64,000 nucleotides of DNA from Candidatus Pacearchaeota archaeon (lineage in GTDB: Archaea; Nanobdellota; Nanobdellia; Pacearchaeales; GW2011-AR1). The stretch is from contig JASFEO010000002.1 in the NCBI GenBank assembly GCA_050124795.1, forward strand, positions 36,754 through 100,753, given 5' to 3'. The position numbers were made by a program, and so were the translations under genes. Shown piece by piece: positions 1,066 through 47,302 of this stretch. The first letter of the stretch is position 1. Each line of letters opens with the position of its first letter. Under the pieces are notes generated by a model. It had not been told where the DNA came from. It saw only the letters and a program-made list of their open reading frames with translations, and made no database searches.

Positions 1066-1989
1066 TTTATCCTGCGAGACCCCAAAACACGCAAAATTTC
1101 AAAATCAGATTTTCGCGACAGAATTATTCATCATGCAATTAATAATATCCTTGAACCAATTTTCGAAAAGGTTTTTATTTATAATAATTGCGCAAGCAGG
1201 AAAAATAAAGGAACTTTATTTGCATTAAAAAGATTTGAAAAATTCAGAAGAAAAATAACAAATAATTTTACATCATATGGTTACTGCATAAAGGCAGACA
1301 TTAAACATTATTTCGAGGAAGTTAATCACGAAATTTTGCTTGAAGTCTTGAAAAGAAAAATCAAGTGTGAAAAAACTATTTGGCTGTTCAGACGAGTAAT
1401 CGAAAGGTCTGAGAGAGCGAACAAGTTCGTGGTAGAAGAGAGTAATTTTGATTCGTCTCTCTCTCTCTCTCTCTCTCTCTCTTCGTGCGGGCTTGAGAGT
1501 AAGACGCGGAGTTCTTCATTAACAGCTAAAGGTATGCCCTTAGGAAATTTAACTTCGCAATTTTTTGCAAATATTTATCTTAATGAATTAGACAAATTTG
1601 TAAAACACAAGTTAAAAGCAAAATATTACATTCGCTATGTTGATGACTTTGTAATTTTGCATTCTTCCAAAGAACAATTAAAAATCTGGAAAAAAGAAAT
1701 TGAGATTTTTCTAAAAAATAGATTAAATCTTGAACTTCATCCTGATAAATCAAAAATTATAAATTTGTCCAAAGGAATTGATTTTGTCGGATTCAGGAAT
1801 TTTTATTATTACAAACTTTTGAGAAAAAGAAATATTAGAAATATGCAAAAGAAAATTAATTTATTTAATCAGGGAAATATTTCGTATGAAAAATTATTTG
1901 AATCCTTTGAAGGTTGGAATGCTTATGCAAAATAGAGTGATTCATATAAATTAAAAGGTAAATTGTTTAGGGCTATTAACGTTCTCTAA
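1066..1989 (+). pseudogene. DGR-type reverse transcriptase, 5'-truncated, with in-frame insert and probable nonsense codon
   Basis: Frame 1 from 1066: FILRDPKTRKISKSDFRDRIIHHAI, KADIKHYF, GMPLGNLTSQFFANIYLNELD, YIRYVDDF, GIDFVGF, GWNAYAK-TAG(1933-35)-SDSYKLKGKLF..TAA 1987-89. No start codon upstream of the RT motifs (in-frame stop at 1036-38). Confidence 0.85.
1411..1501 (+). repeat. Dispersed element family A, copy inside RT; contains (TC)13 at 1456-1481
   Basis: TTCGTGGTAGAAG (1426-38) ... CTTCGTGCG-ggc-TTGAGAGT (1481-1500), matching copies at 12325-12423 and 47206-47302. Confidence 0.75.
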
Positions 1990-2956
1990 TCTTCAACTCC
2001 TTCTTGTTTTTACCAAGAACAATAACTCGTGAAACTTTTTGTTCACCTAAAATTTTATAACCAGTTCCTTTTAGTTCCTTAATTAATTCTCTACTAAATT
2101 TTTTTATCTCTTCATGAGTTGGCATTCTGTCATACCCTAGTCTTTCACGAGCAAAACCCACTGACATATATCCTTTAACCTCAATAAACTGTGGAGAAGA
2201 TTTTTTAATTAACTTAGCATATCCTTCAATATCATCCATGTTAATTCCGCGAATCAAATTAATTCTAAAAACAGTTCTGCAATTTAACTTAGGTAAAATT
2301 TCCAAGGTTTTATTTAATTTCTTCCATGCATCTTTTTCAATACTTCTATGAAACTTTTTATAATCTTTTTCATTTGTTGAATTAACACTTACATAAAGTT
2401 GTGTCGGCAATTGATTTTTATTTTTTAACTCTTTTATTTTCTCAGGATAAAGCCCATTAGTTACTAAAAAAGAAGTTTTTTTCCTACGACGAAGTTCACT
2501 AATTAATTCTCCTAACATTGGATAAAGACTTGGTTCCCCAGAAAGTGAAATTGCAAACTGCATGGGCTCCTGCGATTCAAAATATTTTTTTTGATTTGCT
2601 TTTGATAATTGCTTTTTCTTGCTTTTCGGATCCTGCTTAAACCCTTGAAGTAATTTCCTTTGCGCATTTATACATCCGTCAATAATTTCAGATGGTGAAT
2701 TAATTTTCCCTGGAATCTTTTTATCCTTAGTAAACTCAATTGCACGCCAACAATGAACACACGAATTCGGGCAAAATAGCGACGGAGTCATTTGACAGCA
2801 TAAATGACTTTTAATTCCATAAAACTTTTCCTTATAACAAACACCTTCATTACGAAGAGACTTTTTTGTCCAACGACAAACCTGCACCGCAGAATGCTCT
2901 CCAACAATTTCATAATGCTGTTTTTTTAATAATTGCTTTACTTTATTTGATAACAT
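1976..2956 (-). CDS. taw1: Radical SAM 4-demethylwyosine synthase TYW1/Taw1
   Basis: HSAVQVCRWTKKSL, CYKEKFYGIKSHLCCQMTP, CxxxCxxC (CPNSCVHC), AISLSGEP, FIEVKGYMSVG. Confidence 0.93.
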   Translation of the reverse strand: MLSNKVKQLLKKQHYEIVGEHSAVQVCRWTKKSLRNEGVCYKEKFYGIKSHLCCQMTPSLFCPNSCVHCWRAIEFTKDKKIPGKINSPSEIIDGCINAQRKLLQGFKQDPKSKKKQLSKANQKKYFESQEPMQFAISLSGEPSLYPMLGELISELRRRKKTSFLVTNGLYPEKIKELKNKNQLPTQLYVSVNSTNEKDYKKFHRSIEKDAWKKLNKTLEILPKLNCRTVFRINLIRGINMDDIEGYAKLIKKSSPQFIEVKGYMSVGFARERLGYDRMPTHEEIKKFSRELIKELKGTGYKILGEQKVSRVIVLGKNKKELKIRER

Positions 2957-3023
2957 AAAAAAATAAAAAATAATCAGAATTTAAATTTTTTGCGAAAGTA
3001 GAAATTAAACCTATTCAATAGAA

Positions 3024-47147: not shown

Positions 47148-47187
47148 CTAAAAATCAGGAATCTGAATTATTTAAAATTTGGGATTA

Positions 47188-47302
47188 CGACTCGAGCAGG
47201 AATCTACTCCCAACCTCGCACGAAGTTTTTAATTTAGACACTGAATTTTTTGAGCTTCTACCACGAAGTTGCTCGCCTGCGCAAATAAATCTCTCTTGAG
47301 TT
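47188..47302 (-). repeat. Dispersed element family A copy plus duplicated tRNA-Ser 3' end
   Basis: Minus strand AACTCAAGA..CGAGCAACTTCGTGGTAGAAG..AAAAACTTCGTGCG-agg-TTGGGAGT, then ATTCCTGCTCGAGTCG (15/16 to tRNA 3' end 47324-39). Confidence 0.8.

What the first reader, a model, noticed from the sequence alone, without database searches (positions are those of the whole stretch)
1411..47302. Dispersed ~100-bp element family A: inside the RT and downstream of two tRNA genes
Seen: three copies (1411-1501 +, 12325-12423 +, 47206-47302 -) share ordered boxes T[TA]CGTGGTAGAAG - variable 29-42 nt - CTTCGTGCG-NNN-TTG[GA]GAGT; the two tRNA-linked copies also share AACTCAAGA and CGAGCAA upstream with 18-19 nt spacing. 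GAAG can pair with CTTC to close the variable segment, which is A-rich in two copies and holds (TC)13 in the RT copy. All three are in the sense orientation of the host or upstream transcript. Inference: conserved boxes with a free loop suggest a structured RNA or a non-autonomous mobile element that can sit in frame in proteins, comparable to Rickettsia palindromic elements. I do not recognise it as a known family.
Basis: partly seen in the sequence, partly recalled or inferred. Interest (0 to 1): 0.85.

Follow-up and report, generated by a model that had tools for sequence, protein, structure and literature searches.

The report
Mobile hairpin repeat of tiny archaea
A short folded piece of non-coding DNA has copied itself many times through the genomes of one family of ultra-small archaea, landing inside proteins, inside other repeats, as a removable tRNA intron, and most often inside a freshly duplicated copy of a tRNA gene's end, by a mechanism that is not yet known.

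Summary
Observation confirmed and extended. The real unit is a 55-85 bp irregular hairpin, not a 100 bp box set. This genome has 18 full copies; 61 of 151 genomes of its family have it and 0 of 147 outside the family. No Rfam match; strong covariation. It is mobile: empty and filled paralogous sites lie in one genome, and 67 of 95 copies have their nearest relative in their own genome (16 expected). Behind tRNA genes it sits inside a target-matched second copy of the gene end (53 of 64). In four genomes it is a canonical bulge-helix-bulge intron of tRNA-Gln(CUG). It lies in genes in both orientations, so the 'sense RNA' argument fails. The RT copy occupies a hypervariable DGR linker; its (TC)13 is the local repeat tract. 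No mobilising enzyme was found. Verdict: undescribed RPE/REP-like non-autonomous element with an unusual gene-end-recopying footprint. The scan noted this family before on another contig of this genome, the same footprint around other hairpins in DPANN and CPR genomes, and the RT repeat tract in other genomes.

The parts
1418..1501 (+). Core hairpin, copy in the DGR RT linker
   Evidence: CM hit G000:C2:38170-38255, 47 bits; ends read
1456..1481 (+). (TC)13 tract in the loop of the core; in frame here, (TC)14 and out of frame in the paralog at C2:1151-1238
1065..1935 (+). 5'-truncated DGR-type RT frame with an early TAG; identical to the complete DGR RT at the start of C2 over 385 nt up to the core, 59 of 400 different to its right
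   Evidence: RVT_1 E 3e-26
12201..12273 (+). tRNA-Pro(TGG), target gene
12279..12301 (+). Perfect 10-bp hairpin right behind the tRNA (left-arm hairpin)
   Evidence: sequence
12302..12344 (+). Left arm with the AACTCAAGA box
12345..12352 (+). Piece a': 8-nt copy of the tRNA-Pro T-loop and T-stem (12255-12262)
12353..12424 (+). Core hairpin, tRNA-Pro copy
   Evidence: CM hit G000:C2:49105-49178, 57 bits
12426..12434 (+). Piece b': decayed copy of the tRNA-Pro acceptor 3' strand
47324..47405 (-). tRNA-Ser(GCT), target gene
47283..47323 (-). Left arm with the AACTCAAGA box
47276..47282 (-). Piece a': 7-nt copy of the T-stem 5' strand of tRNA-Ser
47205..47275 (-). Core hairpin, tRNA-Ser copy
   Evidence: CM hit G000:C2:83957-84029, 61 bits
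47188..47203 (-). Piece b': copy of the tRNA-Ser 3' end, 13 nt exact
11441..11522 (+). Empty site: another small repeat upstream of rpl11, whose paralog on C23 carries the core
55407..55504 (+). Second empty copy of that repeat

Best explanation
It is a small non-autonomous mobile element (about 0.85 for that much). The unit is a one-strand irregular hairpin: a closing Y-R pair, tandem G.A/A.G pairs, a stem with conserved G.T/G.U wobbles, an invariant TGGTA/GTG internal loop, a 3-4 bp upper stem, a free loop and a 2-nt 3' tail (shown by covariation). A trans-acting enzyme recognises this shape and inserts the unit without a target duplication, often into hairpin arms, repeat tracts and tRNA T-arms (footprint shown; enzyme inferred). 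What survives depends on the site. In protein linkers and N-termini in-frame inserts are tolerated in either orientation. At position 37/38 of tRNA-Gln(CUG) its 3' end pairs with the anticodon loop, forms a bulge-helix-bulge and can be spliced (structure shown, splicing inferred). Near a gene end the insert is accompanied by a recopied gene end, so the gene stays whole and the element ends up between pieces a' and b' of the displaced copy, often behind a short inverted copy of a' (layout shown; template-switch synthesis inferred). The most likely chemistry is a single-stranded DNA intermediate cut and joined by an HUH (Y1/TnpA-REP-like) nuclease, followed by copy-choice repair synthesis. The confidence given is for this chemistry.
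For: Mobility: empty versus filled paralogs in one genome; 0 of 25 other measurable RT linkers hold the canonical core; copy number 0-35 within one family; nearest neighbour in the same genome for 67 of 95 copies against 16 expected; genome-private loops at different tRNAs. Structure: 92.1% of cells paired against 82.5% shuffled, 152 double changes against 40.5, 0 of 500 shuffles reach it; two pairs that no filter imposed covary (C-G 170, T-A 24 of 215; C-G 167, T-A 24 of 215). Footprint: b' at least 10 of 12 in 53 of 64 against 12 of 184 swapped; a' 8 of 8 in 36 of 53 against 36 of 247; fold-back of 5 or more pairs in 31 of 49 against 28% shuffled. For DNA-level, strand-specific recognition: both orientations in genes; no duplication at plain sites; mixed head-to-tail arrays and a GTAG next to a bulged stem, as described for REP/BIME (PMC8266576, passages); Y1 genes in 46 of 151 family genomes.
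Against: No enzyme is linked. Y1 is in 21 of 61 carriers against 25 of 90 non-carriers (p 0.47) and was not found in 2 of 5 high-copy genomes; the Y1 genes inspected show no core at their ends (by eye). The GTAG lies inside the hairpin, not at its foot, and arrays are direct, not inverted as in BIMEs. HUH transposition as known does not duplicate gene ends. The ends fit a bulge-helix-bulge intron exactly, which suits an RNA route as well. The same tRNA or gene end is hit in several genomes, so some copies may be inherited. No population polymorphism could be tested.
Confidence: 0.4

Rival explanations
1. Escaped tRNA intron moving through RNA: the core is cut out by the splicing endonuclease, re-ligated or template-switched, and copied into DNA by a non-mutagenic reverse transcription primed at a nick in the target; gene-end duplications come from target-primed synthesis.
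For: Canonical bulge-helix-bulge in 4 of 4 tRNA-Gln(CUG) copies (definition in PMC4090602, passages); the 3' end equals the 4-nt helix strand plus a 2-nt bulge remnant; head-to-tail joins of different variants with a 2-nt linker in 15 of 17 cases; duplications of variable length that include trailer sequence; RT in 67 of 151 family genomes; intron copying between tRNA genes is reported in Thermoproteales (PMC4090602).
Against: RT is in 31 of 61 carriers against 36 of 90 non-carriers (p 0.24) and was not found in 2 of 5 high-copy genomes. The RTs seen are DGR type, which change template adenines (14 of 14 and 17 of 17 here), whereas close copies differ by ordinary transitions (A/G 60, C/T 49, A/C 6) and stem adenines are intact in the 18 own copies. 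Tandem joins lack the two 5' bases expected from a circular intron. T-arm copies did not form a bulge-helix-bulge when paired by hand.
Confidence: 0.29
2. A folded single-strand recombination site (attC-like) used by a Xer/IntI-like tyrosine recombinase; the gene-end copies are attachment-site fragments of minimal integrative circles.
For: Irregular stem with unpaired bases and a variable tip; the 3' junction often reads G then TT or TA; Xer-like genes in 4 of 5 high-copy genomes, two in G000; tRNA T-arm integration is typical of tyrosine integrases (PMC4090602); synonymous differences between the two copies of a protein gene end (by eye).
Against: No paired R-box at the 5' end of the core (attC consensus recalled); no cassette arrays seen; many different tRNAs and junctions at positions 54, 58 and 61-62, unlike one integrase site; plain insertions carry no duplication; one high-copy genome had no match.
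Confidence: 0.12
3. A functional structured RNA (guide, processing signal or self-cleaving ribozyme) kept for the host's benefit behind tRNA genes.
For: Strong covariation, invariant internal loop and wobble pairs; all 64 copies classed as 3' of a tRNA are sense (by the class definition); a' and b' track the cognate tRNA.
Against: Not found in 90 of 151 family genomes; 151 of 223 copies are not at tRNAs; antisense and in-frame coding copies; no Rfam ribozyme or guide match at E up to 10 or 0.5; a' and b' have the same sense as the tRNA and the gap between them varies.
Confidence: 0.11
4. No dedicated mobiliser: copies spread by host repair synthesis and gene conversion between hairpin-rich sites.
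For: No associated enzyme found; the two RT copies share a 385-nt identical block; hairpin-rich targets.
Against: Precise, reproducible unit ends at unrelated sites without flanking homology; compensatory changes imply selection on a recognised shape.
Confidence: 0.08

Closest known systems
Rickettsia palindromic elements (RPE) and the coding palindromic repeats of Methanocaldococcus jannaschii (Suyama et al. 2005)
   Same: Small palindromic non-autonomous repeats, intergenic, in frame in proteins and inside RNA genes; mobiliser unknown (PMC2229807, passages; the Suyama paper itself was not read).
   Different: Shorter (55-85 bp against 105-146 bp), no 12-bp perfect terminal repeat, invariant internal loop with a free tip, splice-competent at one tRNA site, and bracketed by target-matched gene-end copies.
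REP/BIME and TnpA-REP (RAYT); IS200/IS605 ends
   Same: One-strand imperfect hairpin with conserved irregularities, a GTAG next to a stem, mosaic arrays, no target duplication (PMC8266576, passages).
   Different: GTAG is internal; arrays are head to tail; no linked transposase gene; gene-end duplication is not a REP feature.
Transposed bulge-helix-bulge tRNA introns of Thermoproteales (Fujishima et al. 2010, as reviewed in PMC4090602)
   Same: One sequence family found as a tRNA intron and at many tRNA genes.
   Different: Only 4 intact-gene intron copies were seen; most copies are outside intact tRNA genes, in displaced gene ends, proteins and other repeats.
YPAL/RU-2 of Yersinia
   Same: Internal inverted repeats, variable duplications of 3-26 bp, targets near dyad symmetry (PMC2229807, passages).
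   Different: Here the duplicate is split around the core and often preceded by an inverted copy of the target; plain insertions have no duplication.
tRNA attachment sites of tyrosine-integrase islands
   Same: Duplicated tRNA 3' ends starting in the T-arm; the gene is kept whole.
   Different: Under 250 bp, no integrase, about 25 different tRNA types hit, and the fragment is interrupted by the core.

Membership tests
Any Rfam family | Match at the family's gathering score | tested here: not met
   only tRNA and RT-16 reach a threshold, none on the core
RPE-like coding palindromic repeats | Multi-copy palindromic repeat under 200 bp, lineage-restricted | tested here: met
RPE-like coding palindromic repeats | In-frame insertion in protein genes | tested here: met
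   26 of 223 copies lie in stop-free frames with 30 or more codons on each side, some of them chance frames
RPE-like coding palindromic repeats | Sequence homology to RPE or to the M. jannaschii repeats | not tested
   Their sequences were not fetched; the exact pattern listed only archaeal MAGs among 80 of 101 hits in 185,579 species genomes
Classical MITE (IS630/IS5-type) | Terminal inverted repeats with a fixed target duplication such as TA | tested here: not met
   Empty versus filled site shows no duplication; ends close by tandem G.A pairs
REP/BIME | GTAG-type tetranucleotide directly 5' of a 20-50 nt palindrome | tested here: inconclusive
   GTAG in 93% of cores but inside the internal loop, its last G paired
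REP/BIME | Arrays of inverted REP pairs | tested here: not met
   The arrays seen are direct, joined mostly by TA or CA; inverted pairs were not searched for separately
REP/BIME | Linked TnpA-REP gene | tested here: not met
   No core beside the 5 Y1 loci read; no association across 151 genomes
REP/BIME | Single-strand cleavage at CT/CA by the cognate nuclease | not testable with these tools
   needs biochemistry
Archaeal BHB tRNA intron | 4-bp helix between two 3-nt bulges at 37/38 | tested here: met
   4 of 4 tRNA-Gln(CUG) copies, helix 4 of 4 pairs, intron-side helix 3-4 pairs; applies to these copies only
Archaeal BHB tRNA intron | Excision by the splicing endonuclease | not testable with these tools
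   no RNA holder listed
IS110/IS1111 bridge-RNA element | Cognate recombinase gene in the genome | tested here: not met
   PF02371 in 0 of 5 high-copy genomes
Casposon-derived element | Casposase (Cas1) gene | tested here: not met
   PF01867 in 0 of 5 high-copy genomes
DGR-copied sequence | Adenine-specific differences between copies | tested here: not met
   46 close pairs: A/G 60, C/T 49, A/T 28, G/T 13, C/G 7, A/C 6
Integron attC site | Paired R boxes and cassette arrays | tested here: inconclusive
   3' junction G then T in 63%; no 5' partner box in the core; consensus recalled, no attC model on hand
Self-cleaving ribozyme | Catalytic core of a known class, or cleavage in vitro | tested here: inconclusive
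   no Rfam ribozyme match; cleavage not testable

The most novel reading that the evidence does not exclude
The hairpin is the recognition core of a retargetable insertion system of DPANN archaea in which short target-derived slots (inverted a, a', b') are rewritten at each new site and guide nick-primed synthesis that inserts the element and rebuilds the gene end in one reaction; the same unit doubles as a spliceable tRNA intron, giving a live route for intron gain. The enzyme would be a not yet recognised family shared by the other gene-end-duplicating hairpins of DPANN and CPR.
Probability: 0.17. Interest if true: 0.92.

Novelty: new variant of a known kind. Interest (0 to 1): 0.66.

Why it matters
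How archaeal tRNA introns arrive is an open question (bioRxiv 10.64898/2026.10.13.758758, abstract), and how coding palindromic repeats move was untested in the review read (PMC2229807). Here one short, well-defined sequence is at once a mobile repeat, an in-frame protein insert and a canonical tRNA intron, with sharp ends, hundreds of natural variants and empty/filled sites. That makes both questions testable with oligonucleotides and a few candidate enzymes. The split, target-matched gene-end copy points to an insertion chemistry that none of the usual families tested here explains.

Tried and rejected
Rfam at gathering and relaxed thresholds: nothing on the core. Single-copy folding: not significant. 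Viral contigs: 0 matches. Half-site search for an autonomous element in G000 gave only chance-level matches and one stub. Candidate mobilisers in five high-copy genomes: Y1 3 of 5, tyrosine recombinase 4 of 5, IS110 0 of 5, RT 3 of 5, Cas1 0 of 5, TnpB 0 of 5 over cut-off; no association for Y1 or RT over 151 genomes; the genomes are incomplete and related. Sequencing runs: one DNA holder, possibly the source; no RNA holder listed; its contigs could not show polymorphism or tract length. Likenesses recalled from memory and dropped after comparison by eye: 5S rRNA loop E, group II intron domain V, hammerhead, twister, pistol, kink-turn, H/ACA pocket. The first BHB script and the first TR/VR comparison were out of register and were redone. 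Outputs were cut, so by-eye statements rest on the rows shown. A DGR paper recalled by id is not held. Literature searches that found no description of this element: (also 33, 38, 44, 63, 81, 87 for background); the library lacks most subscription papers and no supplements were read.

Full report
Check of the observation. The first box has 3 matches in the window against 0.16 expected, and 0 of 100 shuffles reach 3. Variable segments are 42, 30 and 29 nt, upstream spacings 19 and 18 nt, and the RT copy holds (TC)13. Rfam finds five tRNAs and RT-16 in the window and nothing on the element; relaxed searches on one window stretch and four related loci give only sub-threshold matches. Single copies fold weakly.

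The family in this genome. A profile from the first matches found 19 places with E under 0.001; a covariance model built from 78 cores finds 18 full copies. Fourteen lie just 3' of tRNA genes, one is the intron of tRNA-Gln(CTG) on C3, two are in paralogous RT genes on C2 and one is in another small repeat on C23. A half copy and a stub follow two more tRNAs, so 16 of the 36 ARAGORN calls have one behind them.

Range. A strict pattern matched 27 of 401 genomes of the order: 26 of 355 in the own family and 0 of 45 in other families, with one hit for the reversed control. The model matched 61 of 151 family genomes, with 1 to 35 matches each, and 2 of 151 genomes of the phylum, both in the own family. 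An exact pattern gave 101 stretches in the species-genome collection; all 80 listed are archaeal MAGs, and those named below domain are Nanoarchaeota, Nanoarchaeia, Pacearchaeota or Woesearchaeota. Viral contigs gave 0 and metagenomes more than 128. These genomes are incomplete and related to each other.

Structure. Across 215 distinct cores the unit is: a closing Y-R pair, G.A and A.G opposite each other in 215 and 211 of 215, a stem with conserved G.T wobbles, the loop TGGTA opposite GTG, three covarying pairs, a free and mostly A-rich tip, and a 2-nt tail. The search patterns fixed many columns and my filter asked for 6 of 7 stem pairs and 2 of 3 upper pairs, so the two unfiltered pairs matter most: C-G 170 and T-A 24, and C-G 167 and T-A 24. 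On the 78-row alignment 92.1% of cells pair against 82.5% shuffled, with 152 double changes against 40.5; slid controls reach at most 58%. Variants keep the basal stem and swap the upper part. Covariation does not tell RNA from single-stranded DNA.

Mobility. The window holds two empty copies of a small repeat (11441-11522, 55407-55504) whose paralog on C23 carries the core with no target duplication. None of 25 other measurable RT linkers holds the canonical core; the closest RT has a variant in the opposite orientation. Among 95 cores from 12 genomes, 67 have their nearest neighbour in their own genome against 16 expected; single genomes show private loops and left arms at different tRNAs. 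Some sites recur across genomes and may be inherited.

Footprint at gene ends. Of 223 copies distinct in their flanks (near-identical loci from close genomes not removed), 64 lie 3' of a tRNA, 4 inside one, 4 antisense beside a tRNA 5' end, and 151 elsewhere. In 53 of the 64 the bases after the core repeat the upstream gene end at 10 or more of 12, against 12 of 184 swapped controls. In 36 of these 53 the bases before the core match the target just 5' of that point at 8 of 8, against 36 of 247. Junctions cluster at tRNA positions 54 (6), 58 (18) and 61-62 (28) of 59 placed. A short inverted copy often precedes the left piece: 31 of 49 fold back with 5 or more pairs against 28% shuffled, a moderate excess. 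The same layout occurs at a protein gene end in several genomes, with largely synonymous differences between the copies (by eye), and antisense at tRNA 5' ends, where the promoter side is recopied. Orientation therefore follows which end had to be rebuilt, not the transcript (inference).

Intron and coding copies. In four genomes the core is the whole 37/38 intron of tRNA-Gln(CUG), with a full 4-bp helix, two 3-nt bulges and 3-4 pairs on the intron side (motif definition from PMC4090602, passages). One copy is antisense inside a tRNA-Arg intron. Twenty-six of 223 copies lie in stop-free frames with 30 or more codons on each side, 17 antisense and 9 sense; some are chance frames. Those that look real resemble a Bud32-like kinase, an Elp3-like protein, an alkyltransferase and pilin-like N-termini; these names are my recognition and come from no call.

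The RT copy. The RT is DGR type: template and variable repeats differ only at template adenines, 14 of 14 in the window and 17 of 17 at the start of C2. The window frame lacks its 5' part and ends early. It is identical to the complete RT over 385 nt up to the core and differs at 59 of 400 to the right, so both copies stem from one insertion, and a collapsed assembly repeat cannot be excluded. The linker is hypervariable: 11 of 25 related RTs are out of frame there, all 11 with a repeat tract, and 6 of 14 in-frame ones have a tract. The core landed in such a tract and now carries (TC)13 in the window and (TC)14, out of frame, in the complete DGR. Earlier notes of this scan read such tracts as an on/off switch; I did not test switching, and tract lengths are prone to assembly error.

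Mechanism. No enzyme was tied to the element. In five high-copy genomes Y1 was found in 3, tyrosine recombinases in 4, RT in 3, IS110 and Cas1 in none, TnpB in none over cut-off. Over 151 genomes Y1 is in 21 of 61 carriers and 25 of 90 others (p 0.47), RT in 31 of 61 and 36 of 90 (p 0.24). DGR-type copying is unlikely, since close copies differ by ordinary transitions. I rank single-stranded DNA transfer by an HUH nuclease with repair synthesis first (0.40) for the strand-specific irregular hairpin, the lack of duplication at plain sites, both orientations and mosaic arrays (REP features from PMC8266576, passages). An RNA route from an escaped intron is close (0.29): the ends fit a splice motif, and 15 of 17 tandem joins have a 2-nt linker. 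A tyrosine-recombinase site (0.12), a host-serving RNA (0.11) and plain repair (0.08) follow.

Comparison and novelty. It works like RPE and the M. jannaschii coding repeats (PMC2229807, passages; the primary papers were not read) but fails the tests for classical MITEs, BIME arrays, IS110, casposon and DGR products. Searches of the held library found no description of it; most subscription papers and all supplements were unseen. Earlier AI notes of this scan describe what is probably this family on another contig of this genome and the same footprint around other hairpins in DPANN, CPR and M. jannaschii. One of them gave me the wording 'inside a second, partial copy' and prompted the test of the left piece, which held. 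These notes are leads, not support. Verdict: real, mobile, undescribed in what I could search, a new variant of a known kind; interest 0.66.

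Noticed in passing
window 1456-1481; G000:C2:1151-1238; L178-L206: DGR RT genes of this family carry (GA)n, (TC)n, G or C tracts in the linker before the GMPLGN motif; 11 of 25 measurable relatives are out of frame there, all with a tract. Candidate phase-variation switch, noted before by this scan.
   Followed up: partly
window 6509-7558: Second DGR target with variable repeat 7067-7144, RT-16 RNA 7261-7479 and template repeat from 7481; all 14 differences are at template adenines.
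   Followed up: partly
window 11441-11522 and 55407-55504; G000:C23:8652-8732: A second small hairpin repeat that ends at a start codon; the copy at 55407 lies between two versions of a gene end. The core inserts into it at several offsets in other genomes.
   Followed up: partly
L136, L137, L166, L171, L264, L318, L320, L336, L178; L105, L123, L139, L261; L062, L131: Sister families that keep the basal stem and tandem G.A end but swap the upper part; they join the main core head to tail.
   Followed up: partly
L070, L077, L146, L147, L220, L244, L251, L255, L424: A large class of copies is flanked on both sides by G-tracts of the form GGG-N-GGG, which could form a quadruplex with the hairpin as a loop or be a short duplication.
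   Followed up: no
L039, L045, L046, L052, L111, L123, L274, L299, L440: The 3' end of one conserved protein gene (ending near a TWHGG motif) is a repeated target, doubled around the core with mostly synonymous differences, in tandem in some genomes.
   Followed up: no
L043, L102, L155, L302: Antisense in-frame core at the same point in front of the AAMEM motif of a pilin-like N-terminus in four loci with different loops.
   Followed up: no
G000 C3:77169-77293, C3:78517-78700, C4:64615-64723, C11:10318-10441, C11:14976-15099, C18:8589-8732: Several other long or non-canonical tRNA introns in this genome, some mis-typed by ARAGORN.
   Followed up: no
L204: What looks like the end of an IS200-type transposase gene and its terminal hairpin inside an RT gene (identification by eye).
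   Followed up: no
G000 tRNA genes on C3 (His), C4 (Val GAC), C17 (Phe), C18:8589: Perfect hairpins or left-arm-like sequence behind tRNAs that lack the core, possibly remnants.
   Followed up: no
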